A stretch of DNA of 63,975 nucleotides, counting the filler, from Fonticula-like sp. SCN 57-25 (lineage: Eukaryota): assembly GCA_001724245.1 (NCBI GenBank). It is 3 parts of 3 records of this genome, joined end to end, with 100 filler letters (N's around TTAATTAATTAA, not from the genome) between each part and the next. Parts side by side here need not be neighbours in the genome. Positions count along the whole stretch, not along the records: positions 46,559 to 63,975 come from MEDX01000115.1; 2 more parts are not named here. One strand, given 5' to 3'. The notes beneath the pieces were generated by a model. The model was not told where the DNA came from. It worked only from the letters and a program-made list of their open reading frames with translations, and made no database searches. Shown one piece after another: positions 12,101 to 60,225 of this stretch. The translations under genes and the position numbers were made by a program. The number at the start of each line of letters is the position of its first letter. The stretch's first letter is position 1.

Positions 12101-15100
12101 GCTACGACGACGGCGACCCGCGCACGCAGCTCATGGAGTCTGCGCTCGACGGCCTCGCCGAGCTGTACAAGACGCTCTCCGAGGACGACTATTACTTTGG
12201 CCTCTGGCGTCGCCGCGCGCGCTACCCCGAGACCAACGCCGCGCTGTCGTACGAGCAGAACGGCATGTGGGCGCGCGCGCAGGACCTTTACCTGCAGGCC
12301 GCGAGCAAGGGCCGCGCCGGCACGCTCCCCTACAGCGAGGCAGAGTACCACCTCTGGGAGGAGCACTGGCTCGAGTGCGCCAAAAAGCTGCAGCACTGGG
12401 ACATTGTGCTCGAGTACGCCAAGCAGAGCCAGGACCCGCAGCTGCTCCTCGACTGCTGCTGGAAGCTCTCTGAATGGAAGACGCACTCGGAGACCATCTC
12501 GCAGTACGTCAAGACCAACGGGCACCTGCGCGACCCGCGCATCAAGATCCTCGAGTGCTTTGACGCGCTCTACACTTTCGAGACGCAGGACCCGTCGCAG
12601 CCAGTCCTCAAGCGCACCGACATCCAAAAGCTCATCGACGACGGTATCCAGTGGTCGCTGCACCGCTGGTTCAGCCTCCCCGAGACGGTCGCGCAGTCGC
12701 ACATCCCGCTGCTGCAGCAGTTCCAGCAGCTCGTCGAGCTTATCGAGTCGCAGCTCGTCCTCGCCGACCTCGTGCACACCAACCCGGGCGAGCGCAACGT
12801 GAACCGCCAGCAGGTCGTCGCCGACCTCAAGGGCGTTCTGTCGACGTGGCGCGAGCGCCTGCCCAACATTTGGGACGACATCAACGTGTGGAACGACCTG
12901 CTCAGCTGGCGCCAGCACATCTTCAACTCGATCAACGAGTCGTTCTCGTCGATCCTGGGCGACCAGGCGCAGCAGGGCAACTCGCTCGCCTTCCTCGGCT
13001 GCCACGAGATGGCCTGGACAATCAACCGCTTTGCCCATGTGGCACGCGCGCACGGCCTGCTCGACGTCTGCCTCAACTCGCTGGCAAAGATCTACACGCT
13101 GCCCAACATTGAGATCCAGGACGCGTTCCTCAAGCTGCGCGAGCAGGCAAAGTGCTACTTTAACCCGTCGCTCGAGCTCTCCATGGGCCTCGACATCATC
13201 AACAGCACCAACCTGACCTACTTCCAGGCTCACCAAAAGGCGCAGTTCTTTGCGCTCAAGGGCATGTTCCTCTTCAAGATTGGCATGCAGCAGGAGGAGA
13301 ACCGCGGTAGCTACCTCGAAAAGGCCAACGAGTCGTTTACGCAGTCGGTGCACACGTGCGACGTGATCCCCAAGAGCTGGACGTCGCTCGGCTCGTACCA
13401 CGACCACCTCTTCCGCGAAAAGCCGCGCGAGATGGCTCGCGGCGCCGACGCCATCAGCTGCTACCTGCACGCCGCCACGCTCGAGCGCCCCGACCGCTAC
13501 AAGAAGCTCCTCGCGCGCGTCCTCTGGATCCTCAGCTTGGACGACTCGACCGGCTTGCTCGCGCGCTCGTTCGAGCAGTACGCAGACACCGTCCCGCCGC
13601 ACTGCTGGATCCACTTTGTCCCGCAGCTCATCAACTCGCTCATGCGCGCCGAGATGCGCCAGGCGGGCCTCGTGCTCAACTCGGTTGCCCAGGCGTACCC
13701 GCAGGCGCTCTACTACTCGCTCAGGACCGCAATGTTTGACTTTAAGGAAAAGTTTGCCGTGCGCCCCGCGCCGCAGCAGGTCCAGCAGCAGCAGCAGATG
13801 CAGCAGCAGCAGCAAATGCAGCAGCAGCAGCAGGCCCAGCAGGCTCAGCAGCAGCACGCTGCGCAGGCCTCGACGCCCGTCAAGCAGGAGGGCCAGACGC
13901 CCGTCAAGGCTGAGGGCGACGCCGCTGCGCCGTCGGACGCTTCCGGCGCCTCGCAGGTCGACGTCGGCTCGCCGAGCGTCAACCAGGGCACGCCGGCCGC
14001 CGAGCCGGCCAACTCGCCGGCCATGCCCGCGATGGTGATGCCCGCGCGCCCCGTTGCGCCCGGCGTGCCTGGCGTGCCGCCGGCGATGGCCGCGCCCGGC
14101 AGCCCCGCTGGCGCCGTGCCCGTCTCGTCGCAGTCGGCCGCGGCAGCGGCGGTCGCGTCCGCCAACGCCGCGGCTGCCGCCGCCGCGGGCGGCCACCCCG
14201 CCCGCCAGGTGATGAACGCGCCGCCGCTGCAGATGGTGTACGACATTGTGAGCAAGCTCAAGATGACCAACATGATGGTCGTCATGTCGCTCGAGACCAT
14301 CATCGAGGAGCTCGCGAACCGCTTCAAGCCAATGACGGAAGAAGAGCTCTTCCGTATTGTGCAGACGCTTCTCCACGAGTCGTTCCAGCAGTCCATCTCG
14401 CGACTCGCAGAGGGCAACCTCAACATGGAGCAGCTCCCGTCGTCGCTCGAGATCAACATTGTCAAGATCTCGAAGCAGTTCCTCAGCGCGTCGCCGACGC
14501 ACAGCCGCTTCAAGACGACGTTTGACAATGACTTTTTGCTGTCAAAGCCCACTTTTGCGCAGGTCATCGAGTCGCTGCGCCGCTGGCGCGACAAGCTCCA
14601 CCTCGCCATCGAAAAGGTATTTCTATATTGCTATTTTTTGTTGCCTTTTGTGGTTTTGTTATAGTTGCTGACTCGTCGTGCTAGCTGCCGCGTTCGATGA
14701 GCCTCGACCAGGTAAGCCGCCAGCTCGTCGAGTTCCAGCGCATCAAGTACGAGGAGGTGGACGTGCCCGGGCAGCTCATGCTCGCCCGCGACCTGCAAGA
14801 GGTCAAGGAGTTCCCCAAGATCGAGCGCTTCCAGCCGACGGTCAACATTGTCCGCAAGGTGCGTTTTTTAATCTTTTTCCGGCCTTTCCCGCTTTGCTTA
14901 CATTTTGTTTAGCACGGCACGTCGTACCGCCGCCTGACGATCCGCGGCTCGAATGGCAAGATGTACCCGTTCATTGTGCAGCACTCTTCGTCGCGCCACG
15001 CGCGCACCGAAGAGCGCGTCATCCAGCTCTTCCGCATCCTCAACGAGACGCTGGAGCGCAAGAAGGAGACGCGCAAGCGCTCGCTCGGCTTCCACACGCC

Positions 15101-16206
15101 CGCCATGATCCCGCTCAACCCGCACGTCCGCATCGTGCAGGACGACCCGAGCTACATGTCGCTGGTGCGTGTCACTTTCTTTCCGCCTTTTTTGTGTTGC
15201 TCACCGCTGGTGGCATGCAGGAGGACGTTTTCCTTGACCACTGCGCGACGGCTGGCCTGCAGACCGACCTGCCCATCATGACCTTCCACGAGCGCCTGCG
15301 CGCACTGCAGCAGCAGCCGCTCGCCACGCCCAACCGCGAAAAGGTATGGCATTCCCGCTCATTAATCATGAGCCGCCGCTGACGCACATCACAGCTCGAG
15401 TACTTGACGCACCGGCTGGACATTTTCGCCGACATTTCGTCGACGATTGTGACGCCCGACCTGCTTTCCAAGTTTGTGCAAAAGTCAATGTACAACGCGG
15501 CGGACCTGTGGCTGTTCCGCAAGCAGTTTACGTCGCAGCTCGCGACGGCCACGTTCATGACGTACTGCATGCACATTGGGCACCGCATGCCGCACCTGCT
15601 GACCTTTTCGCGCACGACCGGTCACATCCTCGCGAGCGACCTCTTCCCTGGTACGCGCGCGCGCCTCTTTTTGTGCCTCTGAGCTCACATTTGACGCGCC
15701 TTTTCACTCCAGCCCTCAATGTTGCCGGTCAGCTTGAGAGCGCCGAGCCCGTTCCGTTCCGCCTGACGCCCAACCTGCAGCACTTTGTGACGCCCGTCGG
15801 CATCGAGGCGCACTTTGGCTCGTCGCTCATGGCCATCGGCCGCACGCTCGCCGAGCCCGAGTTTGCCCTGTCGGATCTCATCGCCATCTTTTTGCGCGAC
15901 GAGGTCATCTCGTGGCTTTCGGTCCAGCGCCACGTCGGCCCTGAGGTGCCCCCGGAGGTGCCGCTGCGCGACCGCGTCAGGGTGAACGTCGAGCACGTCA
16001 ACAGCCGCGTCCGCAACTTTGCCTGCCTCCAGCCGCCGTCCGACAAGGTACGACGCGCGAACGAAATGCATGAAAGTTTTGCTGACTTTGCGCAGTTTGG
16101 TACGGCTCCGCAGCCTGTGAACCAGCAGATCGTGCGCCTCGTGTCGGCCGCGACCAACCCGCAGCAGCTGTGCCAGATGGACCCGACGTGGCACCCGTGG
16201 CTCTAG
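3137..16206 (+). CDS. TRA1: Tra1/TRRAP PIKK-family pseudokinase (SAGA/NuA4 scaffold), multi-exon
   Basis: Conserved segments ENEDNAAVCLRIIIELHKNFR, SFKVLTECPILIVLLFQLY, LFVELCLTVPVRLSALLP, LVSQGLRTLELCIDNL, WRERLPNIWDDINVWNDLLSWRQH, IYTLPNIEIQDAFLKLREQAKC, EPVPFRLTPNLQ and the FATC end MDPTWHPWL*. Includes one exon of about 9.7 kb. Confidence 0.97.
4336..4397. repeat. Degenerate ~11-nt tandem repeat (GAAAA-T-RRTG-like) inside a TRA1 intron
   Basis: gaaaattagtgaaaaattagtgaaaaatgaatggaaaatgagcgaaaaatgagtggaaaatg. Confidence 0.6.
5557..5670 (+). repeat. Coding tandem repeat (CAGGGCCAGATG)n encoding QGQM units in Tra1
   Basis: Translates QQQQAQQQGQMQGQMQGQMPGQQMQGQMQGQMQGQIQG. A second polyQ/QM tract lies near 13774-13854. 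Confidence 0.85.
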
Positions 16207-34648: not shown

Positions 34649-37600
34649 TCGTCCGGCGAGCCGGTCTTGTCAGGAGGCGACATTTCGCGCGACCTCGTTC
34701 CCTTGAGGACGGCGCGCGCGCGCTCGCCGAGCTGCTTGATGGGCTTGATGACGAGCTTTTGCGACGGCGACTCGAACGACGACGTTGACTCGCTGGCCTT
34801 TGGTGCCTTTGGCGTGCGCGTCTTTTGCGTACCGTAGAGCCGAATGAGCACGGACTGGCGGACGCCGGCGTGCGCGTCGGGGGTAGAGAAGGCAAAGGTC
34901 GAGATTGGGGGGTTCTTTCTCCCCCGCATCCACCGCGACGGGGACTTTTCGCCCACGGCCTTCTCGCTGCCCGACTCCATGTCGCGCAGCGGGATGCCGC
35001 CAGTGTCCAGCGAGACGACCGTGTCCGTCACGGGCGCGTCGGTGGTCGCCTCGGCCGACCGGTTCTTGCGCGGGAGGATGAGCGAGCTGAACCCCGAGAG
35101 AACCGCGCCGACAGACTAGAAAAGGGGGCAGACAGGCCACGTGTGAGCAAGCAAGGTGAAAGAGACACGTTCGGACGCACCGGTGACACGGCCTTTTCTT
35201 CGACATAATCGATCTCGTTTAGAATCTGATAATCGGGAGGGCTCAACATGACGCGAATGCTGCGTTCGAGATGCGTAAGTAGGCGAAGCAAGGGAGCGGC
35301 ATGGGAAGCGCACAATCGCCACGACGTCAGCGAGATGAAGATGGTGATCGTGACGAGCAGAATAATGAACCACGTGGCCGGATTGTACGCCACCTCATAG
35401 AACGTGTCGTAGTACGCGTACAGGTCGAGGTCCTCCGTGTCGTATGTGGACGAAAAGTACCACTGGCAGAATATGAACGCGGCGAGCGAGAGGAGCATCG
35501 CGGGCGTCTCATACATTGTCAGGCGCCTACAGAGAGTATGAGCAGATGTACGTCATCAAACGAGCTGGCGCACGAGATGCCGGTCCAAAGCGTCACCGTG
35601 ATAGACACCATGATGCACGAGTACATGATCGACCCAGTGGACCACACCGACAAGTTGTTGGGCTCCAGGGCGGCCAGCACAAACCCAAAGATGATCGCAG
35701 AGTGCGCCGCAGCAATCAACGCCCGACTCCAGAAAAGTCCGGTATTAAACTAAAGTACCGCGGTTCACAGTCAGCGCACATACACCAAAGAACAGCCACG
35801 CGTACCAGTTGGTCCTTGTTGTACGCCTCGGGCACCTGAAACAGCTTTCGTAGCGAAATGTGCCGGTCGAGCACAGCCGGCAACATGACAGGCAAGCCGG
35901 TAAAGGCTGTGAAGTACAGCACGTGCAGGAAGGGCTGGTACATGACCTACGGAATCTTTGGTTAGCGACAGCGGGCGACGAGTGGGCCAGAAAGCGCACC
36001 AAAATGGAGAAGCTGTTGACAAACTGAAAGTACATGAGCATCATGTTGAAGAGAATCTGGATGTAGAACTGATAGAGGATCAGCGTCGATTGGCGGTGCA
36101 TGGACCAGCTGCCGTGGACGAGAACAAGCTTGAGCAGGTATCTAAACTGGCCAATGGAAAAGTCCGACGCGCGCACGGCCTGACTTCCCTCTTCACCGTG
36201 CAGACCGACGCCAATGTTGGCCGCCTGCAGCATGCCGACGTCGTTTGCGCCGTCGCCAATTGCGAGCGTTACCGCCTTGGTGCGTTCCTTGACGAGAGCG
36301 ACCACGGTGGCCTTTTGGAGCGGCGACACGCGGCAGCAAATGACGGTCCGGAAGTAGAGGGCGTACGCCACAAAGCCGTCCTTGATGTGGTCCTGCAAGG
36401 CAAAGAAGAGGGTGGCGCCGTCAATGACAAGCGCCATGTCCTTTGGCAGCCTGTTGTTGGCAGCCTGCGTCTTCAACTCCTGCAGCTGACTGGCCAGGTA
36501 ATCAATGAGCCAGTCTTCATCGCCGTTGCAAATGCGCATGTCGGTTCGGTCGTCCATCATCCGCGAGGAGAGACCGATGTTGATGGCCGTTTCCTGCTTG
36601 TCACCAGTGAGCACCCACAGCTTGATGCCCGCGCGAAGCAGCATCGCGATCGTCTCGGGGACGCCATCCTGCAGCTTGTCCTCAATCGCTGTCGCACCGA
36701 GCAACTCCATGTCAACCTCAATCTGCTCCGCGGCCTCATCCAACTGAAAACAAGGGTGCGTCAGCGCGCCGACCAGAGACGGAAACAAGGCAGAGCACAA
36801 CGTACCCTCGCAGCGCGGTCATAAAGGGACTCGCTCGCATCAGTGTAGATCTTTTGCCACGCGGTGTGTTCGCTCTCGCTAAGCTCGCGCTTAGCAAGAC
36901 ATAGGGTGCGAAGACCGAGGCGAGAGTACGCCTATCACGGAGAGAACACATATAAGCATCTCGAGCATGATGACATGCGGGCACCGTACCATAAGGCACT
37001 TGCTGGTCTTTCGGACCATCTCTTCATCGTCGCAGGCCAGCCGCTCGAAAATAACATTGTCCGCGCCCTTGCAGTAAAGGACGATGCGGCCGTCTGGTCT
37101 GCGCACGATGATGGACATGCGCTTGCGCGTGCTGTTAAAGTCGTTCACCTGGAGTACCTCAAAGGTCTGCGGCTCCCCGAGCACGTTCACTGTCACCGTA
37201 TCCGGATTGCGAGACTAGGGGCGAGTTAAGCAAAGTACCCGACACAACGACGGGGAGGGCGTACGGAAAACACATAGCCGACCTGCTGCGCCATCAAGAG
37301 GAGTGCAAGCTCGTCGGGAGACGACGCGCGGTACTTGATATTTCCAGCATCTACGGGTCATGCGACGTTTTAGGCGCCGATTAATGCGCGCAAAGTATAT
37401 TGCGTACCATCCTGCTCGGGGATCACCGTCTGGCATACGGCCAGATTAAGGCAAAACTCTTGGAGAAGCGCCTGCTGCCGTGCGTCCGCGGCACCCTTCA
37501 GGTCCTTGATAAACTCCTCGCTCTCAAACACGGGATGCTACAGGTTCACTCGTCAGCTGCCAAAAAATCAGGAGAGGCGCAGAAACGAACCTGCTTGAAC

Positions 37601-39628
37601 GCCGCATCCGTGGACACGGGGCCTCCGTAGTAAATGCCGCCGACCACGCAACGCTGAAAGACCATCTTGTTCTGAGTAAGTGTTCCAGTTTTGTCGGAAA
37701 AGATGTGCTCGACTTGGCCCAACTGCTCGTTCAGGTTGGTGGTTCGGGCGTTCGCATACACGTCGCGATCCATGTAGTGCATGTCCTCGTCCCAATTGAT
37801 GAGCAAGCCCTGAATGAAACGAACAATTTCGAGCTGGAAAAAGAGACCAATCGGAATGATGTTTTGCAGCAGCAACACGGCGCGCAGGAATTGGAAGAAC
37901 CAGTCGCTGGATTCCGCAAAAGGAATGTACCACAATTCCCCCTCAGACTAAGCGCAACCGTAAGTGCTCGTGTTAACATAGCAAAAAAGCATCGCGTACG
38001 GAGTTTGTAATCACGCCTCCCACAACGAGTACGACAGCCAGAATCAAAATGGCCAGGAACAGCCAAATGATTTGCTTGTTGAGCTGCATCTGGAGGTTGC
38101 TCAGCTTAATTGGCGCCGGGTCGCTGTTCCTCAACTGAACCACAGTAAGCGATAACGCCAGAGAGCTGGGGTTGCGTACCAGCTTGGTCTCATGCCCAGT
38201 ATAAATGACGAGGCCGTGGACCCACGTTGTGTTTTGCAGCGTGGAGCCGCGGAGGATGAGCTCATTGGGCGTCAGCGCGATGCGTCGCGGTTCCGCCTGG
38301 ACGTCAATGTCCGCGTTAATGATGTCATAGTCGAACGACTCTGAGTGCGACACGGTCTCCTGGGGGGCAGGGCGACGCCGGTGGATGTTGTTGGCCTCCA
38401 ATCCCTGCGTTACGTGCATAAGGCCATCAAACGTGTACAGGCGGTTGTTGGGCCCTTCGCAGACCACCGTTCCTGCAATGCGGGACAAGTTTGCAGGCGT
38501 CTTGATGTGGCGACTGTCCTTGATGCACTTGCGAATTTTCAGGTTGGATTCGCCGTCAATGCTGGCGGTCTCGACGAAACACACGCCGTGCGGCTCGCTC
38601 GTTGACAGCTAATAAAAGAGCATCCCAAATCGCGTTAGCCAGGCGGGCCAAGAGATGACGACGCACCAGAATGACATCGGCGCAAAAGGCGTCGTTCTCG
38701 TGGATGAGTAGAATATCGCCAACCACAACGTCACGCCACGCCTGCGTTTGAAACTCGCCATCGCGCAAAATCTGCACAGGAGTGTCGTTTGTTCGCTGGT
38801 CGGCGCGATACTAGCAACATCGAACGTAAGGCAAAGTCGTGGTGACGCGGGCATGGTACGCACGCGGCGAAAATCTTCAATGAGCTCCTTGATGCCGGAC
38901 AGAACAAGCACAACAAGAAGGGGGGTAATTGCCAACCCTGGATTAATGATGGCGGCTTGAGGGACCATTGCAATGCATGCGCAAAAAAGGAAGAAGAAAT
39001 TGGACGCCTTTCCAAACTGCTCAAAGAAGAAGCTACAAAAAAAGAGTAAGTAAAACAAGTGTGGCGCAATCCAAGCCTTGTACCGAGGGAAGAACGAGTA
39101 GATCGAGTATTTCGTGGTGGAGACCGAGTTGTTCCTAAACTTCAAGTTGTGGTGGCGATCGTGATTGATGTACAGTGTCCGGAAAGGATCCTGAAAATTG
39201 TCGTTCTCAGGGCGCCTTCTACGGCAGCATCCGCCTTTCCTCAATCGCGCCCACGTCGTCGACGATCCAGTCTGTATCGAATTCAAAATGGCAGACGCCG
39301 CCGAGGCGATGCCGCCACTCGGCTGTGATCTCGTTTCAGTCTCGAGCACTTCGCACGATGCGTCGGGATTCTCCAATGGCGACACCCCTTGGCTTGACGA
39401 CGCAACAGGTTCCGCGTCCATCCGCAGATCTGCTGAAAGCTCCGTGTCGCTCGTCCATGCCGAGCCTATTACTCGCCGGTCGCCGTCGGCCTCACTAGGG
39501 CCGGCAGCGGGATCTGTAGCAAACCCGACATGCTTTCCGGAGACAGAAGACGGACCGGCAGGCTGATCGCTATTCTCCATCGTGGGAGTATATGGGTCCA
39601 ACTTGCTAGTTGATTCAATTCCGCTCAT
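34384..39628 (-). CDS. P4-ATPase phospholipid flippase (alpha subunit), multi-exon
   Basis: [49 protein letters not shown] (phospho-Asp), [66 protein letters not shown]. Confidence 0.96.
34613..34647. repeat. (GACGCC)n hexamer repeat encoding (SA)n in the flippase C-terminal tail
   Basis: gacgccgacgccgacgccgacgccgacgccgacgc. Confidence 0.8.
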
Positions 39629-39892
39629 TGTGTAGCCGATTCAGAGGCGAGGCATGCCTCGCGCGGGCTCACACAACGTAGGCAACTTGTGGCGCGCGGT
39701 GGGGCCAAAGATGCAGCCTGCAAGAATCTGGTGCCGATAAAGGGCAGTTAAAAGGAGTGGCAAGGGGACTGTGTATGACCGCCGATAGCCGCAATGTAAG
39801 GGCGCCTACAAACCCCTAACGTAGGCTGGAAAAAGGAGCGTCGGCGATCGGGTTCAAGGTCCGCGCCCACCAGCGGGCAATTCGTGATTGTA

Positions 39893-39969
39893 ATTGGTCA
39901 TGTGACTCATTATTCGCTACTGATTGGTCAACCTAGATCGACAAACTTGTCAGATGAAAAGGACCAATG
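39893..39969. promoter_or_regulatory. Three CCAAT/ATTGG boxes in both orientations in the flippase/CDC50 bidirectional spacer
   Basis: attggtca (~39893), ctgattggtca (~39920) and gaccaatg (~39962). CTGATTGG recurs at ~52947, ~60612 and ~63900. Confidence 0.5.
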
Positions 39970-40152
39970 GTATGATTGCATTCCTTACCTGGAAAGGCGG
40001 CGGCTTTCCGGTTCTCGCCCTGGGGTGCATCTCGACGTCTTCGTTGATCTGCTTGGATTAGCCTGGACCGAAGGGAGGAAAAAGGTAAAGGCAGCGGCAC
40101 GAGTAGGGAAGCGGAACCACCCAGATCGACGGATAACTATTTTTTTTAAAAA

Positions 40153-41583
40153 ATGGCCGACAACAGCGGGGAGGTCAAGTCGAAGAAGCCGTCCAGTGCG
40201 CCGTCGTCATTCCTTTGCGATCGCTGTGGTTACTAACTGTAGCCTGTCTCTGCTCGCAGGCTCCGCGTTCAAGCAGCAGAGGCTGAAGGCGTGGCAGCCC
40301 ATTTTGACGCCGTCTAGCGTGCTTCCGACGTTTTTCGTGATTGGCATTGTATTTATTGGTCTCGGCGTTGGGCTCTTCCTCACGTCCAAGGGAGTGCGTG
40401 ATCCCACTGGCGCCGCCTCTCTTTGCTCGTGTACTCACGCGATCTCCATACAGGTCACCGAATACGAGGTCAATTACACCAACTGCGCGAGCTATTCGAC
40501 GCCCGAGCCGTTTGATGTTGACGGCACCAAATATTCCCTCGTCGCCCTCAACAACCAGACCCAGTGCCGCATCGAGGTTCAGATCACCGACGACCTGCCC
40601 GGCCCCGTCTTCCTCTACTACCGCCTGACGAGGTGCGTCGCGCTGCGCGGATTTCTCTTTTTTTGTATTAATTTCCATTTTTGCTCCACAGCTTTTACCA
40701 GAATCACCGCCGCTATGTCAAGTCGTTTGATGCCCGCCAGCTGCAGGGCGACATGCGCACGATCGCCCAGATCCAGAGCAACTGCGACCCGCTCTACCAG
40801 GCGGAGGACCCTGTGGACAAGATCATGAAGCCGATTTACCCCTGCGGTCTCATCGCCAACTCTGTGTTCAACGACACGTTCTCCCCGATGATCGGCAAGT
40901 CGAACAACTACACCTGGCTCACCACCGGCATCGCCTGGCCGTCCGACAAGAACAAGTACGGCCCGCCCCAGTTTACGTCCGCCGACGTCGTCCCGCCGCC
41001 CAACTGGAGCAACTACAATGGGTATGCCGCACTCGTTCCTTATTTCTATTGTTTGCTTATCGCATTGCCCCGATCGCCGCAGCACGTACCAGATTGCGCC
41101 GTGGACGCTCGACACTGTTGACCTGCAGGGTAATGAGGCGTTCCAGGTGTGGATGCGCACCGCCGGTCTCCCGACGTTCCGCAAGCTCTGGGGCCGCCTC
41201 GAGACGACGCTCGCCGCCGACACCTACGAGATGATCATCGACCTGCGTGCGTTCCTCGCTTTCTGCTCCCTTTTGCCTTTGTGGCCCGTCAGCTGACGTG
41301 GCGTCCGCAGGCTTTGATGTGACCAGCTTTGGCGGCACCAAGTCGGTTGTCATCGCCACCACGTCGTGGCTGGGTGGCAAGAACCCTTTCCTCGGCATCG
41401 CCTACCTCGTGGTCGGCTGCCTCTGCGTCGCCCTGGGCCTCATCTTCCTCATCAGGCACATCAGGAAGCCGCGGTGCGCGCTCCCTCTCCCATTGCTAAA
41501 AAGCAGGGCTGCTCACATTTTGCCGTTACAGCAAGCTCGGCGACTCCAATTACCTCTCGTGGAATAAGAACAAGTCGCATTAG
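40153..41583 (+). CDS. CDC50: Cdc50/Lem3/TMEM30 flippase beta subunit
   Basis: [99 protein letters not shown]. Confidence 0.97.
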
Positions 41584-45587: not shown

Positions 45588-46458
45588 ATGGAGGACGAGC
45601 TCAACGTGACGCCCTTGGAGGAGACGTGGGACCAAGAGGCCGGTACGGGCATGCACGCTCGTTATATTTGGTATATATTAACTAGATTTGTCACCCATTC
45701 CAAGTGCAAAACACTGTTGCTACGCTTAGACGGTACCTCGGCCCTATAATTGCAGACAATCCGCAGCCGTCGTCCGAGCAGCATGCACATGCGCGGTACG
45801 TTCCTTGCCACGTTGCGAGAGCATTTGCTAATATACACATTTGAATTTAGCGAAAAGCTGTTACGTCTATCCACATGGCAGTTTCAGGAGCTTGCTGTCG
45901 ATGTGCTTGATGAGATGAACCGCCGCGAAAGCGCCGCCACCGACATTATGGCGCCGGCCATGCTCCCTCCGAGCGAGCACTACAACGCCAAGCGTAACCA
46001 AGCTCGCCAGAAGCTTGCCACGCTTCCAGAGACTCGCTTTAAGGATCTTGCGTCGGATGTCTATGTTGACCTCAAGCGCCGAGCGGCTCGTCTGTGTGCG
46101 TTCTCACTATGGCTCGAGTCTTGCGCTGATCTGTGCATTTTCCAGTGTCAGGGACGCTCGATAGAAGCCTAGGGAACCTCATCAGGGCGACGGCCCCGGC
46201 TCCCATTGATGTTTTTCCTTCAGCATCGCCGGGGCGCCGCAGCGCTCCTTCGTCGCCTGCAAAAGGCGTCCCGGTCACGCCAGTCAAGACCGTTCTCGAC
46301 AAGGACGAGCTGTACGAGTCCCTCGACGAGCTTTTGGTAGATCTCGGTTCCATGATTGGCTCTCAAATTACGGGCTTTACGTCTCCGAGCGAAGTGCAGA
46401 GCCCCCGCTATCTCGAGCCTGCGTCGCCCCGCTATCTCGAGCCCTCAGCGCAGCAGCA
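45588..46458 (+). CDS. Spa2/GIT-homology-domain protein with fungal Spa2-like N-terminal tandem SHD; truncated at contig end
   Basis: AREKLLRLSTWQFQELAVDVLDEMNRRE...KRNQARQKLATLPETRFKDLASDVYVDLKRR. No ArfGAP or ankyrin region upstream. Confidence 0.85.
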
Positions 46459-53036: not shown

Positions 53037-56000
53037 ATGGCGATGAGGCGCGCGGCTACCTTCGGGTTGCTCGTCGCCCTTTTGGCCGTGTTTGCGGGCT
53101 CTTCGCTAGGTGCGCCTTGGGTTTGATCTATTTTCTAGTGGTTTTCTCACGACTTTCCTTGTCTTCTTGGCGGGTTTGCCTTTCTCTTCACTTGCAGTCG
53201 AAGCAGCCGGTTCAACTGTGCCGCACTGCAAGACCTACAATTACGAGCTGCAAGTCGACTACACGCAGTGCCTGTGGACTGGCTGCGAGTCGGGCGGCTG
53301 CCCCAGCGATGGCAACACGTACACCAAGATGTGCGAGTCATGGCCCTGCACCGAGTGCACGGTAAACGGTCAGTCGAGCGGCACCCGCTGCTGCCTCTTC
53401 TACCAGGATGCCTACTGCTGCAAGTGGACCAACCAAATCAGCACCTGTAACACGTGCGAGGACGGCTACGCCCTCCAGAACAACGTTTGCACTGGTACGT
53501 TTTTGCTTTCTTTCTTCCATGGGCGCTGACATGGCGCGCGCGCAAAGACATCAACGAGTGCGCTGCCGCGACCCCGCCTTGCGACTCCCACCGCGAGTGC
53601 GTCAACTCGGCCGGCGGTTTCTCGTGCCTTCCCTGCTCGAGCGGCTACAAGGACAATGGTCCTTTTGGCTGCTCGGCGTGCGAGGCCGGCACCTGGGGCC
53701 CGCAGTGCGTCAATAACTGCACCTGCACGCAGGGCGCTTGCGACATTGTGACTGGCGCCTGCCTCTGCGAGGACGGCTGGTACGGCGATGACTGCACCGA
53801 GACCCAGTGCGGCGACGGCATGATCCGCGGCGACGAGGAGTGCGAGAACCTCTCGGACTCTTGCTGCGACCAGGTCACCTGCAAGTTCAAGGTCGCCGGC
53901 TCTGCCTGCGAGTCCGACTCGAACCGCTGCACCATCGATGTTTGTGAGAGCTACTCGGGTGTCGGCTCCCAGACCGTTTGCACGCACAACGTCAACGCGA
54001 CCGAGTGCTTCTGCGGCAACAACGTTGTCGATCCCATCGGCGAGACCTGCGACGAGGGCAACCTTGTCACGCCGCCGTGCCCCTACGGCGAGGAGTCCTG
54101 CGTCGTTTGCAGCGAGCTTTGCCAGGCCACCAACGGCACCACTTCGTATTGCGGCGACGGCGTTCTCCACGCCGACAATGGCGAGCAGTGCGACGACGGC
54201 AACTCGCTTGACAACGACGGCTGCTCCTCGACCTGCACCAAGGAGCCCGGCTTCAAGTGCGTCAACGCCGGCGAGGCTTGCTCTGCGTGCAGCCTCCTCG
54301 ACCCGCGCTCGTACGGCATCGACTGCGCGCTGACCTGCACGGTGTGCTCCAACAACGCGACCTGCGGGAGCGTTGACGGCTCCTGCATCTGCCAGGCCCC
54401 CTGGATCGGCACCACGTGCACGAACCTGCCGCGCCCCGGCACCACCGACGTGACTGCCATCGTTCCGACCACCATCCAGGTTGACGACCGCGCCATGTTT
54501 ACGCTCACCGGCGCCTTCCCGTCGTCCTTTAGCAGCTTTGCGTTCGTGCCCACGACCATTTCCAGCAACATTTGCGATCGCGCCAACATGCTCGGCGTGT
54601 CGCAGTACGAGACCGAGTATGCGCAGATGAGCAGCGCGCTCGCCAACGCTGGCACCTACCACGTGTGCTACTCGACCAACCCCTCGGACGCGTCGTACGT
54701 GCACCAGGTCGGCCTCGTGCTGAACGTGACCGCCAAGACCGCCACTGAGGGCTCCATCACGTCGATCGCGCCCTCGACCGTCAGCTCTGGCCGCCAGCCG
54801 TCGATCACCTTCAACGGTGCCATCCCGTCTGCCCAGACCTACATTGGCTTCTCCAACGACGGCTGCGGCACCGTTCACCTCAAGACGGCCATTCCCCAGG
54901 GCCTCACCCGCCCGCCGACCGTCAAGGTTGGTCCGTTCGAGTCGGCCGTCATGCCCGACGGTCCGTACACGACCTGCTACTCGGTCGACGACGGCGTGAT
55001 GTGGTCGCCGCAGAGCACCCCGGCCGCCACGCTGACGATGCTCACGTCGACCCCGAACGAGCTCGTTGTCACCGCCATCAACGGCGCCACCGACGTCTCG
55101 TTTGTTATCGGCGAGACCGTCGCCCTTGACCTGACTGGCCCCACCCCGAACCCCGTTAGCCTTATCGGCCTGACCAAGTGGCCGTCGTACAGCTGCGGAT
55201 CGCCCGACTTTGTGACCACGTATGACAACCCGCCGGTCAACATTGGCACGTTCAGCACCTTTGATGCTGGCCTGTACACGCTCTGCTACTCGGCCAACGG
55301 CGACTCGTCGGCCTACACGAACCAGGCCCTCGTTACGGTCACGGCCCTCGCGCCCGTCCCGACCGCCACGTCAATCTCCAACATTGTGGTTGGCGGCGGC
55401 ATGCCCGCGATCATGACGACCGCCATGGCCACCGCCACGATCACGGCGCTTTCGTCGACCTCGATCCAGCTCGTCGGCCTGACCCCGTCGCCGACGACCA
55501 TGATTGCGCTCGTGCCGACCGGCTCGGTCAACTGCGACGCGAACCGCGTGTCGGAGACCCCGGTCCCCGGCCCGACTGACCTTGTCACGATCCTCGTCTC
55601 GACCGCCGGCGAGTACAACCTGTGCTACTACACTGGCACCGCCGGCTCCTCGTGGGTGATGCAGACCAGCGTGTCGCTCGAGGTCCTCCCCGCCGCCGCC
55701 TCGGGCTCGACCATCTCGTCGATCTCGACCTCTGGCACCGTCCCCGCCGCCGACGCCATCTACGCCGGCGTCTCTGCCTCGTTCGTGTTCAACGGCGGAT
55801 CGCCGTCGACACACACTGTCGTCGCCTTTGTCCCCGGCGACAAGACCTGCGCCGATGCGTCGGATATCTGCCCGCCCAACCTTACGGGCAAGTACTGCCA
55901 CATTGACTCCCCCGACACGCCCAACCCGGTCCCCGAGGGCGAGTTCCCGCTGTACGCCAAGGGCCTCTACGCCATGGCGCCCGTCTCGCTCGTCGACTCG

Positions 56001-58585
56001 CGCATGGTGGCCGGTGAGTATGCCGTCTGCTACTCGACCGACGATGGTGTCACGTACACGCAGCAGGACGCGTCGCTGCGTCTCCGCGTGCTCGCCCCGC
56101 CCGCCCAGGCCGACAGCATCTCTGCCGTCTCCCTGACGTCGTACATTCGTGGCGCGACCGCTGATGCCACGTTCACCGGCGCGATGGCGTCGCCGCTCAC
56201 CTACGTTGCGTTCTCGCGCGACTCGTGCGCGACCGTTTCGTCGCAGACCTTGCTCAGCACCTCCAACACGGTCTCGCTGACCGTCCCCGCCGCCGCCGAC
56301 TCGTGGACTGTCTGCTACACCACGTCGATCTCGAGCGGCTGGGTCGCCCAGGGCGTCTCCATCCTGGTGCTGCCCGTCCCGGCGTCGACCACCTCGGTCA
56401 CGTCCGTGTCGCCCAACACCGTCTTTGTTGCCGACTACACCGTGACCCCCACCTTTGCCCTCCTCGGCGCCGACAAGTCCGCCACCTCCAAGTATGCGCT
56501 CACGCGCACGACTGATGGCTGCGCCGCCGCCGAGACCCGCTTTGCCGTGTCGGACTATGGCCTCACGTCGCAGCAGCTGAGCGCGCCGCTCGGCCGCCTC
56601 ACTGGCGGCACGTGGTATGTGTGCTACAGCACGGACAGCGGTGCCACATGGTTCCAGCAGGCCACGGGCTCGATCGTCGTGCGCCCGGCGCTCACCGACT
56701 CGGACGTCCAGATCACTGAGGTGTATGACCGCTTCTACAGCAACACGACGAGCGGCGAGATGATGGCCGGCAGGCCCGTTCTCCTTGACTTTGTCCCGCT
56801 CATGCCGTCGCCGTTCACGGTCGTCCGCATCTCGATCACGGACGACTGCGCCGGCTCGGCTTCGACCACCGTGCCGTACACCACCGAGACGGTCCTCGTC
56901 CCCGGCTTTAACGTGGCCGCCGACGTTGTCCGCATGTGCGTGTCTGTGGACGCTGGCAACACCTTTACGCCCCAGAACCTGCGCTTCTCCGTGTTCCCGC
57001 CCGAGGCCACCCCGACGACGATCACGTCCATGTCCAGCTCGTCGTTCAACAGCGGCGTGCCTACCACGGCGATGACGCTGAGCCACAAGTCGGCGCCGTT
57101 CGTCTCGTTCAACGGCGCGTACCCGTCGCCGCACACTGTGCTCGGCTTTGTCCGCACCGGCGACGACTGCGACCCGCAAAAGTTTGTGCCGATCACTGGC
57201 GGCCCCGTGTTCGCCGTCAACCTGACCGCGACGCCCGTCCCGCTCTTTGGCCAGGACATTGCCGGCTCGTACGAGCTCTGCCTGACCACCGCGCGCGGCG
57301 GTGTCGGCGCCCTCTTCAAGCAGACTGGCCTCACGCTGACGGTCGTCCCGGCGACCGCCACGCCCGGCGAGATCACCGCCCTCAGCCCGATGCACTGGAT
57401 CGTGCAGCAGCCCAACGTCACCGTGACCATCACGGGCGGCCTTCCGTCGACGCTCTCGCGCTTTGGCGTTGTCCTGCCGACGGCCCCGAACTGCTCGCCG
57501 ACCAACTTTATCACGTCGGCGCTGTTCACGTCCCGCAACGTTGTCTTTGCCGCCAGCCTCCCGTCGGCCGGCACCTACCACCTGTGCTACTCGACCAACA
57601 ACGGCGGCTCCTACATTGCCCAGACCGCCGTCACCATCCAGGGTGTCCGTACGTAGAGTGTTTTTTGTTTGGAGGCGCGGTTTGGTTTATCTAACTTTTG
57701 TGCGTTTTCGCAGCTCCGCCGTCGACCGCCACGACCGTGACTGCTCTTAGCCCGCCGTGGATCAATGCCGGCAGCGCCTTTACGATGAGCTTTATCGGCG
57801 TGATCCCCTCTGCGCAGACGTACGTTGGCTTTGTCAAGATGGGCGAGCCGTGCTCTGCCGCCCAGGGCCTTCGCTACGCCGAGTCGGCCGTCTCTTTCGC
57901 CGCGATTGACACTGTCGGCACGTACGAGCTGTGCGTGTCGACCGGCGTGGACTCTGGCTCGTTCATCAAGCAGACGCTCGTCACTCTCGAGGCGCGCGTG
58001 CCGCCGGCGTCGGGCAGCTCGATCTCGCAGATCTCGCCGCGCTCGGTCATTGCCGGCGCCAGCGTCGAGATGACGTTCTACGGCTTTGTGCCGTCGTCGT
58101 CGAGCAAGGCGGGCTTTATTGTGACTGAGCTCAACACGCCGCCGACGTGCTCTGACAAGAACAAGATCATGAACGTTGTCGACCTGAACAAGCTGTCGTC
58201 GTACGACCTGCCGACGCCGTTCGAGTATGAGAACAGCGTGTACCGCGTGTGCGTCTCGGCCGACGGCGGCAACAACTACGTCCTGCAGACGAACGCCCTC
58301 ACGTACCTGAACGTGACGAGCGCCGCCAGCGTGCAGTACCTGCGCGACACGAGCGCGCTCGACGGCGTCTACATTGTGGCCGGCGTCTTCCTCGTCGTTT
58401 TCATCGCCGTCATCGTCGGCGCCGTGTACTACCTCAAGCACAAGAAGGACCAGGAGAACACCAAGCTGGCCGAGGACATTGTCGGCATGCCCTACACGAC
58501 GGCGAGCACCGCGTCGATCGACCAGATGATGACGTCCAACCCGCTCTACCAGGAGAACGCGCAGGTCGAGCACAACGACGAGTAG
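53037..58585 (+). CDS. Large type-I membrane protein: signal peptide, Cys-rich head, EGF modules, disintegrin-like and Cys-rich repeats, 12 x ~100-aa two-Cys domains, TM helix, NPLY tail
   Basis: Signal MAMRRAATFGLLVALLAVFAGSSL; DINEC...C.NSAGGFSC (Ca-EGF); CGDGMIRGDEEC...CC..TCK; CGDGV...GEQCDDGNSLDNDGCSSTC; repeated G.Y..CYS.D.G..Y..Q; TM GVYIVAGVFLVVFIAVIVGAVYYL then KHKK; tail MTSNPLYQEN. Confidence 0.85.
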
Positions 58586-59160
58586 ACAGCGCCTTAGTAT
58601 TCCGTAGGTTTTTCTTTTCTACTTTCCTTGCCCAGCGCTCTTTCTATATCTTTTCAACGGCCCAGCACCCGATGATTCATGTACTTTTCACGGCGACCGC
58701 CCGCCTGGGCGTCCCTTAGGGGACAATGGGCGTCCTGCTGCCACCCTCTATTTCACTGTAATAGTACAGAACCTCTTTGCCCCTTTCGTCGAATACATCG
58801 TATCTTACCGTAATCGTATTGAAGAGAAAAAGTACAGTTAAACGTGTTTTATCGTGTTTTTATCGTGTTTTTATGTCTTTTTGTACTCTTTTTGTGTGCA
58901 AATCAGCTCCAAAGCAAGTCGTCAAAATGGGTCACACAAAGATATCATACATTAACAGTGGCAGAAATAAAAGAAACACGGGGATGGTAATAGGCTACAA
59001 ATGCTACAACTATGGCGCGCGGCGCGCTCTGCGCCCGCCCCCTCGCTGCATCACACCAAAATTGCAACCCGAGCACGCAGTGCCCGTCAAATCAATCGGT
59101 CCATCAATATATAAAGTCAAGTCAGTCGGTCAATCAATCAATCAACATTCGGTAAGATCA

Positions 59161-59193
<33 letters not shown>
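59161..59193. repeat. (CAT)11 microsatellite, preceded by TCAA-rich repeats
   Basis: Read directly, in the convergent intergenic region downstream of the response regulator. Confidence 0.9.
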
Positions 59194-59194
<1 letters not shown>

Positions 59195-59268: not shown

Positions 59269-60225
59269 CTAGGAGGATGCTTGCTTGCCTGGGGTCGGTG
59301 GCCCGTCTGCCACCTTGTCCCCTTCTATTGGCGACGACGTGCTGCCGCGCCGCGTCGGCAACGCGCCAGCCTCGTCCTTGCGGTCCGGCTTGGCCGCCGC
59401 CGCTGCAGCCGCCGCCGCCGCCGCCGCCGACACCTTGAGCGTGACGCCGACCGGGAGTGCCGCCGCTGGCGCGACGACCCACTTTTGCATCATCTTCTCC
59501 AGCTCGAGCTTTGTGAACGGCTTGGAAAGAAAGTCGGTGATGCCCGCCTCGTTGAGCGCGGCGTCGCACGAGCCCATTGCGCTGACGGCGACGATGACGG
59601 TGTTTTGGTTTGGGCCGATCTCGGTGCGGATGCAGCGCGTCGACTGCAGGCCGTCCATGATCGGCATCATAATGTCCATCAGGATGATGTCGTAGTGATG
59701 CTCGCGCGTAAAGCCGAGCGCCTCCTCGCCATTGTTGGCCATGTCGATCTGGCGGATGCCGAGGCGCTGCAGGAAAGAGTGCGCCACGCGGCGGTTGATC
59801 TCATTGTCCTCGACGACAAGGCAGCGGATCGCGTTGGGGGGGAAGGCGGGGACGGAATCGGCGGTGCGCGAGGAGGAGGGGAGAGCACTGCGGCTGCGGT
59901 AGGAGGAGGAGGACGTACGGCGCTGGTACGGTGAGCTGAGAGAGAAGATGTCAGCATCGGAATCAGGAGAAAAAACACACGACATCAGGGGAAATCACCA
60001 AAACCATCAACAGCATGACCATCGGCCATGCCCGGAATCAAGACACAAAAAAATATACACGAGAAAGAGGATCAACACAAGAGCAAAGCACTAAAAAAGC
60101 GGCCCAAAAGGCCACGTGGAAAAGCAAGGAAACAAAAGATGGCGCGTCATCATCCCTTCTCAATCACTCCCATCCCATCCTACCGAGTCCGCCGCGCACC
60201 TGCTTGGGTGTGTAGCCATCGCCAT
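59269..60225 (-). CDS. Stand-alone response regulator (single receiver domain)
   Basis: CLVVEDNEINRRVA...ANNGEEAL...YDIILMDIMMPIMDGL...IVAVSA...AGITDFLSKPF, with acidic pocket, phospho-Asp and Lys intact. Probable exon 1 MAMATHPS, spliced at AG|GTGCGC. Confidence 0.85.

What the first reader, a model, noticed from the sequence alone, without database searches (positions are those of the whole stretch)
58364..58585. Integrin-beta-like NPLY tail on a non-integrin receptor
Seen: a single TM helix, a KHKK stop-transfer and a ~50-aa tail containing MTSNPLYQ (NPLY at 58538-58549). Established: NPxY/NPLY in beta-integrin tails binds talin and other PTB/FERM proteins, and Dictyostelium Sib adhesion proteins use similar tails. 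No vWA/beta-I domain is visible here. Inference: a candidate alternative adhesion or prey-capture receptor coupled to talin, and the best candidate for a new system in this window. NPxY could instead be a plain endocytosis signal.
Basis: partly seen in the sequence, partly recalled or inferred. Interest (0 to 1): 0.75.

Follow-up and report, generated by a model that had tools for sequence, protein, structure and literature searches.

The report
Surface receptor with conserved NPxY tail
The flagged stretch is the membrane anchor and short inner tail of a very large surface protein of an unidentified microbial eukaryote, and its NPLY motif recurs in distant relatives, so it probably docks an adaptor protein, though which one is not known.

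Summary
Window 58364-58585 encodes a transmembrane helix, a KHKK stop-transfer and a 50-residue tail, with NPLY at 58538-58549. It ends a four-exon gene (53037-58585, +) for a 1,780-residue type I protein: a signal peptide, a cysteine-rich head (EGF_CA, TIGR02232 repeat) and 12 repeats of about 100 residues. The repeats match no Pfam or NCBIfam model. One repeat folds confidently as a seven-strand sandwich closest to IPT/TIG domains. There is no vWA or beta-I domain.

All 7 listed strain differences in the last exon are synonymous.

Three of the four homologue clusters that keep a membrane anchor end in NPx[YF] tails: DNPIF in P0005 and P0016, FVNPVY plus DNPIF in P0010. The fourth, from Thecamonas, carries a RasGAP domain instead. 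The motif is therefore conserved, and the Y/F exchange argues for recognition without phosphorylation.

Talin coupling could not be tested. No genome is held, the lineage is unresolved, and no talin, FERM or PTB sequence was available. Internalisation and cytoskeletal anchoring both remain open. This is a new variant of a known kind of receptor (Sib, Acanthamoeba MBP1, CED-1, LDLR-type tails).

The parts
53037..53109 (+). Exon 1: start codon and signal peptide (MAMRRAATFGLLVALLAVFAGSSL), ending in phase 1
   Evidence: A hydrophobic segment lies at residues 5-30.
53110..53197 (+). Intron 1, 88 nt, GT..AG, phase 1
   Evidence: Inferred from frame continuity; no RNA data.
53198..53494 (+). Exon 2: N-terminal cysteine-rich module (residues 25-123) with no family match
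   Evidence: Pfam finds 0 families. The single-sequence AlphaFold2 model is poor, pLDDT 41.3.
53495..53547 (+). Intron 2, 53 nt, GT..AG, phase 1
53548..57648 (+). Exon 3: rest of the cysteine-rich head and repeats 1-10
53547..53657 (+). Calcium-binding EGF domain (residues 124-160)
   Evidence: Pfam EGF_CA, 29.4 bits against a cut-off of 27, E 9.8e-07.
54144..54260 (+). Cysteine-rich acidic repeat (TIGR02232 myxo_disulf_rpt / DUF4215)
   Evidence: NCBIfam TIGR02232, 52 bits against a cut-off of 20.8. Pfam DUF4215 scores 24.8 bits, below its cut-off of 27.
54429..57647 (+). Repeats 1-10 of the ~100-residue 'G.Y.CYS' repeat (residues 418-1490)
   Evidence: An HMM of the repeat finds 10 domains here, i-E 3e-29 to 5e-23.
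57649..57713 (+). Intron 3, 65 nt, GTACGT..CTAAC..CAG, phase 1
   Evidence: A variant strain (run X2) has 3 substitutions and two deletions (1 and 5 nt) here.
57714..58585 (+). Exon 4: repeats 11-12, juxtamembrane stretch, transmembrane helix, tail and stop
   Evidence: 7 of 7 listed variants are synonymous.
57716..58315 (+). Repeats 11 and 12 (residues 1492-1691)
   Evidence: i-E 1.2e-28 and 2.2e-28.
58364..58432 (+). Transmembrane helix GVYIVAGVFLVVFIAVIVGAVYY (residues 1708-1730)
   Evidence: It holds the strongest hydropathy peak of the protein, 2.93.
58433..58582 (+). Cytoplasmic tail, 50 residues, starting with the LKHKK stop-transfer
   Evidence: A synonymous variant lies at 58462.
58538..58549 (+). 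NPLY (residues 1766-1769), 11 residues before the C-terminus
   Evidence: NPx[YF] is also present in the tails of P0005, P0016 and P0010.

Best explanation
The stretch is the membrane anchor and cytoplasmic tail of a 1,780-residue type I surface glycoprotein of an unidentified, GC-rich microbial eukaryote known only from metagenomes.

Shown: the protein has a signal peptide, a disulphide-rich head (one EGF_CA, one TIGR02232-type repeat and an unmatched N-terminal module) and a rod of 12 divergent Ig-fold repeats. These repeats are closest in fold to IPT/TIG domains. Each has two invariant cysteines, presumably forming one disulphide. One helix and a 50-residue tail follow.

Also shown: NPLY is this protein's copy of a C-terminal NPx[YF] motif with hydrophobic x. 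The motif is kept in the short tails of distant family members, while the rest of the tail diverges.

Inferred: because Y and F interchange, the motif is read without phosphorylation by a PTB-like pocket. That pocket could belong to a Dab/ARH/CED-6-type PTB domain or to the F3 lobe of a FERM domain.

Inferred, and my commitment: the head and stalk bind a surface, a particle or another cell, and the tail recruits an adaptor that takes the loaded receptor into the cell by clathrin-type or phagocytic uptake. Anchoring to actin through talin or a MyTH4-FERM myosin is the main alternative. As with integrin beta tails, the two are not exclusive.
For: Gene model and topology.

Coding constraint: 7 of 7 listed exon-4 variants are synonymous. 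Indels lie only in the intron and after the stop.

Domains: EGF_CA and TIGR02232. The 12 repeats have invariant C49, C80 and Q92. The AlphaFold2 model of one repeat has pLDDT 85.5, pTM 0.78 and seven strands. The best structural matches are IPT/TIG domains: EBF3 Z 8.6, EBF1 Z 8.3, plexin-A1 IPT Z 8.2. True TIG domains sit beside the same repeat in 3 of 5 homologues scanned (P0008, P0014, P0023); six further homologues scanned had no Pfam family at all.

Motif conservation. I judged 20 of the 24 hits to be real relatives, after setting aside the window's own two fragments and P0019 and P0026. Four clusters among them have a membrane anchor followed by a cytoplasmic part. P0005 ends ..FLSDNPIFESSPTYESKNPDPFKK. 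P0016 ends ..FLSDNPIFESSPMYQSTTKDPFKK. P0010 ends ..VSFVNPVYLRLSQSQTEDATDNPIFTEP. P0008 has a RasGAP domain instead. The tail of P0016 aligns with ours better than all but 2 of 5,000 shuffles.

Leaning towards uptake. DPFKK is conserved at the C-terminus of P0005 and P0016, and P0010 has FVNPVY. As recalled, DPF is an AP-2 appendage ligand and FxNPxY is the LDL-receptor signal. No integrin-type HDR[RK]E motif or second NxxY is present.

Precedents. CED-1/Draper-type receptors appear with NPxY and CED-6 in the search listing only; those papers were not read. SibA and Acanthamoeba MBP1 are single-pass receptors with two NPxY or NPLF motifs (PMC12686525, passages; PMC9692275, passages).
Against: No binding partner was tested, and none could be.

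Only three other tails are known, and two of them (P0005 and P0016) are 48% identical to each other, so they are not independent.

The best local alignment places our NPLY on their SP[MT]Y, not on their NPIF. The match to P0005 is not significant (266 of 5,000 shuffles). Positional homology of the motifs is therefore uncertain.

Our own motif has T, not F or Y, two residues before the N, so it is not a canonical FxNPxY. Our tail has no DPF.

Very long rod-like ectodomains are more typical of adhesins than of cargo receptors.

The fold assignment rests on Z of about 8, which the tool's own note calls borderline. Foldseek found no PDB match at E <= 0.001. The Pfam TIG model does not match the repeats.
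Confidence: 0.45

Rival explanations
1. One reading: an integrin-independent adhesion receptor. Its NPLY binds the F3 lobe of talin, or of a kindlin or MyTH4-FERM myosin. This links the receptor mechanically to actin, as SibA does in Dictyostelium.
For: The motif is NP[L/I/V][Y/F], as in the membrane-proximal motif of integrin beta tails (recalled). SibA, with two NPxY motifs, bears talin-A force (PMC12686525, abstract and passages). Acanthamoeba MBP1 has two NPLF motifs and has been proposed as a talin partner. P0010 has two motifs 13 residues apart. The 12-domain rod with a cysteine-rich tip has the architecture of an adhesin. The closest named relative of the repeat is a Thecamonas trahens protein. 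Kang et al. (bioRxiv, passages) discuss integrin beta of apusomonads. That Thecamonas has talin is recalled, not seen. Weak leads place the window's organism near fungi: HSP60 matches fungal chains best, and a Spa2-type GIT_SHD gene lies in the window.
Against: Talin could not be sought. The lineage is unresolved, and talin is reported only from Amoebozoa and opisthokonts and their kin (PMC10846614, passages). A family member also occurs in the cryptophyte Hanusia phi (P0023). There is no vWA domain, no HDR[RK]E-like motif, no aromatic residue about five places before the N, and only one NPxY in our tail. The DPFKK ends of P0005 and P0016 point to endocytic machinery (recalled meaning).
Confidence: 0.25
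2. The motif is a phosphotyrosine docking site of the Shc/IRS PTB type, used for signalling after tyrosine phosphorylation.
For: NPxY is the core of such sites (recalled). Ours has a tyrosine, and a second tyrosine lies in GMPYTT.
Against: Relatives carry F at this position: NPIF in P0005, P0016 and P0010. F cannot be phosphorylated. No tyrosine kinase is known for this organism, and none is in the window.
Confidence: 0.05
3. NPLY has no function of its own. The tail is only a short stop-transfer stub, and the recurrence of NPx[YF] in relatives is shared ancestry plus chance.
For: Only three other tails are available, and two of them are close kin. The N is not kept at the best-aligned position, where the relatives have SP[MT]Y. 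0.6% of shuffled tails carry NPxY, so a proteome will hold a few by chance.
Against: P0010's 120-residue tail shares nothing obvious with ours except the motif, which it carries twice near the C-terminus. The background rate outside tails is 3 in about 21,000 residues. Every one of the three short-tailed homologue clusters has the motif within 20 residues of the C-terminus.
Confidence: 0.1

Closest known systems
Dictyostelium SibA-E ('similar to integrin beta')
   Same: A single-pass type I protein with a large repetitive ectodomain, a short tail with NPxY, and no integrin alpha partner. SibA couples to talin-A (PMC12686525).
   Different: Sib proteins have a vWA domain and two NPxY motifs. 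Kang et al. (bioRxiv) report them only from dictyostelids. Our protein has no vWA, one NPxY and a different repeat (IPT/TIG-like fold).
Acanthamoeba mannose-binding protein MBP1
   Same: A signal peptide, a cysteine-rich ectodomain, one transmembrane helix and a short tail with NPLF motifs. It has been proposed, but not shown, to bind talin (PMC9692275; PMC12686525).
   Different: MBP1 has CXCXC repeats and DUF4114. Our protein has an EGF/TIGR02232 head and 12 Ig-fold repeats.
Integrin beta subunits
   Same: Type I topology, cysteine-rich EGF-type modules, and an NP[L/I]Y-type motif in a tail of about 50 residues.
   Different: Our protein has no beta-I/vWA domain, no PSI or hybrid domain, no HDR[RK]E-like motif and no second NxxY. 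It is not a member.
CED-1 / Draper / MEGF10 and LDL-receptor-family tails
   Same: An EGF-containing single-pass receptor whose NPxY recruits a PTB adaptor (CED-6/GULP, Dab2, ARH) for engulfment or endocytosis. This rests on recall and on the search listing. P0010's FVNPVY fits FxNPxY.
   Different: Our motif is TSNPLY, with no aromatic residue at -2. Pfam found no EMI, LDL-A or YWTD modules. The stalk is made of Ig-fold repeats.
IPT/TIG-repeat receptors (plexins, Met; Dictyostelium TgrB1/TgrC1)
   Same: The ectodomain rod is built of IPT/TIG-like sandwiches. Homologue P0008 of Thecamonas trahens combines the same repeat with a true TIG domain, a transmembrane helix and a cytoplasmic RasGAP domain, which is a plexin-like layout. 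TgrC1 is a single-pass adhesion glycoprotein with a short tail, and a reference title cites binding through IPT/TIG domains (PMC4404348, passages).
   Different: The Pfam TIG model does not match our repeats. No Sema or PSI domain was found by Pfam, and there is no cytoplasmic GAP domain. Instead there is a 50-residue NPLY tail.

Membership tests
Integrin beta subunit | Beta-I (vWA-like) head domain with metal-ion sites | tested here: not met
   Pfam scan of exon 2, exon 3 (1,367 residues) and exon 4 at E <= 0.1 gave only EGF_CA and DUF4215.
Integrin beta subunit | Tail with a membrane-proximal charged HDR[RK]E-type motif plus NPxY and a second NxxY (NPXY/F and a charged motif as named in Kang et al.; exact consensus recalled) | tested here: not met
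   The tail reads LKHKKDQENTKLAEDIVGMPYTTASTASIDQMMTSNPLYQENAQVEHNDE. It has one NPLY, no HDR[RK]E and no second NxxY.
Sib family (Dictyostelium) | Extracellular vWA domain | tested here: not met
   No VWA hit.
Sib family (Dictyostelium) | Two NPxY motifs in the tail, with talin binding | tested here: not met
   Our tail has one NPxY. Talin binding is not testable with these tools.
IPT/TIG domain (Pfam PF01833) | Match to the sequence model | tested here: not met
   No TIG hit at E <= 0.1 in 1,367 + 289 residues. TIG is found in homologues P0008, P0014 and P0023, but in other parts of those proteins.
IPT/TIG domain (E-set Ig fold) | Seven-strand Ig-like sandwich superposable on solved IPT/TIG domains | tested here: inconclusive
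   The model has pLDDT 85.5. The top VIA-align rows are IPT/TIG domains (EBF3 Z 8.6, rmsd 2.3, 82 aligned; plexin-A1 Z 8.2), but Z of about 8 is borderline by the tool's note. Foldseek's best match is a SKICH domain at E 2e-3.
Plexin-like receptor | Cytoplasmic RasGAP-type domain after the transmembrane helix | tested here: not met
   The tail is 50 residues with no domain. Homologue P0008 has RasGAP at 86.9 bits.
LDL-receptor-type FxNPxY internalisation signal | Aromatic residue two places before N (consensus recalled) | tested here: not met
   Ours is T-S-N-P-L-Y. P0010's first motif, F-V-N-P-V-Y, does meet it.
Unmodelled 'G.Y.CYS' repeat receptor family (this report) | Tandem ~100-residue repeats with two invariant Cys and a G-x-Y-x-x-C-Y-S-x...Q motif | tested here: met
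   12 repeats. Relatives are found at E 1e-24 to 1e-3, including Thecamonas trahens AMSG_02044 and a Hanusia phi protein.
Unmodelled 'G.Y.CYS' repeat receptor family (this report) | Short tail ending in NPx[YF] | tested here: met
   Ours plus 3 of the 4 anchored homologue clusters.

The most novel reading that the evidence does not exclude
Diverse protists, including an apusomonad-related or fungus-related lineage known only from metagenomes, have a family of giant non-integrin receptors. These are built from an undescribed IPT/TIG-like repeat. Their conserved C-terminal NP[ILV][YF] motif is a talin or FERM-F3 docking site. If so, this is a second, independently built 'integrin-like' force-coupling receptor class beside Sib, with sister proteins (Thecamonas AMSG_02044) that carry a plexin-like RasGAP domain in place of the short NPx[YF] tail.
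Probability: 0.2. Interest if true: 0.75.

Novelty: new variant of a known kind. Interest (0 to 1): 0.5.

Why it matters
How cells outside animals attach surface receptors to the cytoskeleton or the uptake machinery is an open question. The paper behind asks explicitly for more non-integrin, NPxY-tailed receptors to test.

This gene adds a concrete candidate with a conserved motif. It also defines an ectodomain repeat family that neither Pfam nor NCBIfam models. I found no paper on it: a search for 'TIG domain' with 'NPxY' gave 0 papers, and 'AMSG_02044' gave 0 papers. The library searched is partial.

A relative that couples the same repeats to a RasGAP domain hints at modular swapping of cytoplasmic outputs on one type of ectodomain. 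The value is limited for now by the unknown organism and the lack of any binding or expression data.

Tried and rejected
**Whole-genome search for paralogues.** No genome is held for this window, so talin, PTB and FERM genes could not be sought either.

**Word-based protein searches.**
- The 'near' search found only the window's own fragment.
- The 'longer' search found nothing.
- The profile of three C-termini found only P0016 and the window's own fragment.

**Collection scans.**
- Metagenome scan with A1: 147 pattern matches, none confirmed.
- Metagenome scan with A3: only L001, the locus of the P0016 cluster. L001 gave no lineage clue.
- Genome scan with P0006: 37 pattern matches, none confirmed. 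Whether the signal-peptide-only relatives (P0006, P0007, P0020) are bacterial stays open.

**Expression.** No RNA holder was listed among 22 runs. The laid runs were DNA contigs only, so the splice sites rest on frame logic and variant patterns.

**Earlier notes of this scan.** Nothing was returned.

**ESM Atlas.** For the C-terminal exon the best hit was a TIG/Anth_Ig cluster at 0.82, below the tool's 0.9 bar, so it is a lead only.

**Fold and family searches for the repeat.**
- Foldseek against PDB gave no match at E <= 0.001.
- The repeat profile against PDB sequences gave one hit at E 0.91.
- AlphaFold2 of the N-terminal module without an alignment gave pLDDT 41.3, which is unusable, and it was not searched.

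**Lineage.**
- HSP60 scores best against fungal chains: 622 and 612 bits against 550 for human.
- DHX8 scores best against human.
- eIF3d is uninformative.
- The nearest Tra1 Atlas clusters are 'commonest Basidiomycota'.
- Rfam and tRNA scans were empty.
- None of this settles the lineage.

**Rejected idea.** I checked whether the big ORF at 4780-14664 is a paralogue. It is Tra1/TRRAP-like. The repeat HMM finds no copy outside this gene.
Full report
**1. The observation**

That sequence is ...SALDGVYIVAGVFLVVFIAVIVGAVYYLKHKKDQENTKLAEDIVGMPYTTASTASIDQMMTSNPLYQENAQVEHNDE, followed by a stop.

The coordinates match the finding exactly:
- Transmembrane helix: 58364-58432.
- Tail: 58433-58582.
- NPLY: 58538-58549.
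- Stop: 58583-58585.

After the stop the sequence turns AT-richer.

**2. The gene**

The tail belongs to a four-exon gene on the + strand. The exons are 53037-53109, 53198-53494, 53548-57648 and 57714-58585. The three introns are 88, 53 and 65 nt long, run GT..AG and are all in phase 1. The last one carries GTACGT and a CTAAC branch-like site.

The product has 1,780 residues, with:
- exactly two hydrophobic segments, the signal peptide and the anchor at residues 1702-1734;
- 12 N-glycosylation sequons;
- 84 cysteines, 58 of them in the first 417 residues;
- only one NPx[YF];
- no Yxx-hydrophobic or dileucine motif in the tail.

No RNA run was listed, so the splice sites are inferred. Natural variation supports them. 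In contigs of other runs laid on 57600-58700, the 7 listed differences that fall in exon 4 are all third-position and synonymous, one of them in the tail. The 65-nt intron carries 3 substitutions and deletions of 1 and 5 nt, and one insertion lies 10 nt after the stop. Caveat: table 8 counts 14 differing letters for the two X2 contigs, and table 3 places only 9 of them. Five near contig ends are unplaced.

**3. The ectodomain**

Pfam finds EGF_CA at residues 124-160 (29.4 bits) and a sub-threshold DUF4215. NCBIfam finds the TIGR02232 cysteine-rich acidic repeat at 52 bits. Exon 2, the N-terminal module, matches nothing. Folded without an alignment it gave an unusable model, pLDDT 41.3. There is no vWA or beta-I domain.

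Residues 418-1691 are 12 tandem repeats of 93-135 residues. They share a G-x-Y-x-x-C-Y-S motif, two invariant cysteines and an invariant glutamine. An HMM of the repeat finds these 12 copies and no other in the six-frame translation of the window. Neither Pfam nor NCBIfam recognises the repeat, here or in 11 relatives.

With the 12 copies as its alignment, AlphaFold2 gives a confident seven-strand sandwich: pLDDT 85.5, pTM 0.78.
- Foldseek finds no PDB match at E <= 0.001. Its best is a SKICH domain at E 2e-3.
- In the full VIA-align pass most of the top rows are IPT/TIG domains: EBF3 Z 8.6, EBF1 Z 8.3, plexin-A1 IPT Z 8.2, then ANTXR2, NFAT, Met and CAMTA1.
- Z of about 8 is borderline by the tool's own note, so I call the repeat 'IPT/TIG-like in fold', not a member of the family.
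- The ESM Atlas gave the same lead at a sub-threshold score.
- True TIG domains lie elsewhere in 3 of 5 relatives scanned.

**4. Relatives and the tail motif**

The exhaustive phmmer search with the last exon found 24 proteins at E <= 0.001.
- Two are the window's own fragments (P0002, P0004).
- I set two aside as unrelated: P0019, a bacterial repeat protein, and P0026, an Ig protein matched on its membrane segment.
- The rest share the repeat at about 26-38% identity.
- Nearly all are unnamed metagenome proteins.
- The named ones are Thecamonas trahens AMSG_02044 (P0008) and a Hanusia phi protein from EukProt (P0023).

I scanned all stored proteins except P0003, P0035, P0019 and P0026 for a strong hydrophobic segment followed by more sequence. 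Four homologue clusters have a membrane anchor and a cytoplasmic part:
- P0005 ends ...FLSDNPIFESSPTYESKNPDPFKK.
- The P0016 cluster (5 members) ends ...FLSDNPIFESSPMYQSTTKDPFKK.
- P0010 is a 7,017-residue protein with a signal peptide and a 120-residue tail ending ...VSFVNPVYLRLSQSQTEDATDNPIFTEP.
- P0008 has a RasGAP domain after the helix.

So each of the three short-tailed relatives carries NPx[YF], with hydrophobic x, within 20 residues of its C-terminus. Ours lies 11 residues from the end. Outside tails the motif occurs 3 times in about 21,000 residues of 11 relatives.

Qualifications:
- P0005 and P0016 are 48% identical to each other.
- Smith-Waterman alignment of our tail is better than all but 2 of 5,000 shuffles for P0016, but 266 of 5,000 shuffles reach the score for P0005.
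- That alignment places our NPLY on their SP[MT]Y rather than on their NPIF.

What is conserved is therefore a C-terminal [N/S]Px[Y/F] element, with NPx[Y/F] present in every tail. A strictly alignable position is not conserved. The Y/F exchange argues against a requirement for tyrosine phosphorylation.

**5. Surroundings and organism**

The window holds ordinary eukaryotic genes:
- Tra1/TRRAP
- a Furry/MOR2 homologue
- mitochondrial HSP60
- eIF3d
- a P4-ATPase next to CDC50
- DHX8
- a Spa2-type GIT_SHD gene
- a MutS fragment
- a 2-hydroxyacid (phosphoglycerate-type) dehydrogenase
- FANCL
- a response-regulator receiver
- AHSA1
- ELP6

There is no FERM, PTB or talin gene among them.

The DNA is found in bioreactor, wastewater, aquatic, soil, manure and 'fungus metagenome' runs. 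No genome is held.

Lineage leads are weak and partly conflicting. HSP60 is nearest to fungal chains. DHX8 is nearest to human. The Tra1 Atlas clusters are mostly Basidiomycota. The nearest named repeat relative is from an apusomonad. I leave the lineage open. This matters because talin is reported only from Amoebozoa, opisthokonts and their kin (PMC10846614, passages).

**6. Mechanism**

Shown: this is a type I surface protein under purifying selection. It has a disulphide-rich tip, a 12-domain Ig-fold rod and a short tail, and the only recognisable element of the tail is a family-conserved NPx[YF].

Inferred: the motif is a phosphorylation-independent ligand for a PTB-like pocket.

Two outputs are plausible.
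- Uptake is favoured by the DPFKK ends of P0005 and P0016 and by FVNPVY in P0010. As recalled, DPF binds AP-2 appendages and FxNPxY is the LDL-receptor signal. It is also favoured by the missing integrin-type tail elements and by the family's presence in a cryptophyte.
- Cytoskeletal anchoring is favoured by the adhesin-like rod, by the integrin-like NP[L/I]Y form, and by the precedents of SibA (force-bearing with talin-A; PMC12686525) and Acanthamoeba MBP1 (two NPLF motifs; PMC9692275).

I put uptake at about 0.45 and talin/FERM anchoring at about 0.25. As with integrin beta tails (recalled), one motif may serve both.

**7. Comparison and novelty**

The protein is not an integrin beta subunit, a Sib protein or a plexin. 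In each case a defining feature was tested and not met (see Membership tests). It works like the class of single-pass receptors with NPxY-type tails: Sib, MBP1, CED-1/Draper and the LDL-receptor family.

Two things are new: the ectodomain repeat family has no model, and the tail motif recurs across that family. I found no paper on either. A search for 'TIG domain' with 'NPxY' gave 0 papers, and 'AMSG_02044' gave 0. The library is partial and supplements were closed.

**Verdict.** This is a new variant of a known kind, and the interest is moderate (0.5).

Noticed in passing
window 53826-53834: An RGD tripeptide (residues 217-219...CGDGMIRGDEECEN...) sits in the cysteine-rich head of the same protein. 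It may be chance.
   Followed up: no
window 53110-53197, 53495-53547, 57649-57713: All three introns are in phase 1, so exon 2, which encodes the unmatched N-terminal cysteine-rich module, is a symmetric 1-1 exon. That is the pattern expected for a shuffled extracellular module.
   Followed up: no
P0008 (Thecamonas trahens AMSG_02044, 1,951 aa): This relative combines the same repeat with a true TIG domain, a transmembrane helix and a cytoplasmic RasGAP domain. It is a plexin-like receptor layout in an apusomonad.
   Followed up: partly
P0010 (7,017 aa, from a 24.7-kb contig): A giant relative with a signal peptide, one anchor near the C-terminus and a 120-residue tail. The tail carries FVNPVY and a terminal DNPIF. 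It was too long for the Pfam tool, so its domains were not scanned.
   Followed up: partly
window 35745-39640 (-) and 39800-40828 (+): A P4-ATPase (flippase) gene and a CDC50 gene, its usual beta subunit, lie head to head about 160 nt apart.
   Followed up: no
window 45750-46172 (+): An exon with two Spa2-homology (GIT_SHD) repeats lies close to the start of its gene, with no room upstream for an ArfGAP domain. That is a Spa2-like rather than a GIT-like layout, and a weak hint of a fungus-related lineage.
   Followed up: partly
window 4780-16206 (+): A Tra1/TRRAP-like gene has a 3,294-codon uninterrupted ORF with long Q-rich runs, followed by a PI3K/FATC end in a separate ORF.
   Followed up: partly
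window 59269-59994 (-) and about 59161-59194: The next gene downstream, on the opposite strand, encodes a response-regulator receiver domain. A (CAT)n microsatellite lies just beyond its 3' end.
   Followed up: no
P0006, P0007, P0020: Some relatives of the repeat have only a signal peptide and no anchor, and they look bacterial. No match was confirmed in the prokaryote genome collection with P0006, so their origin is open.
   Followed up: partly
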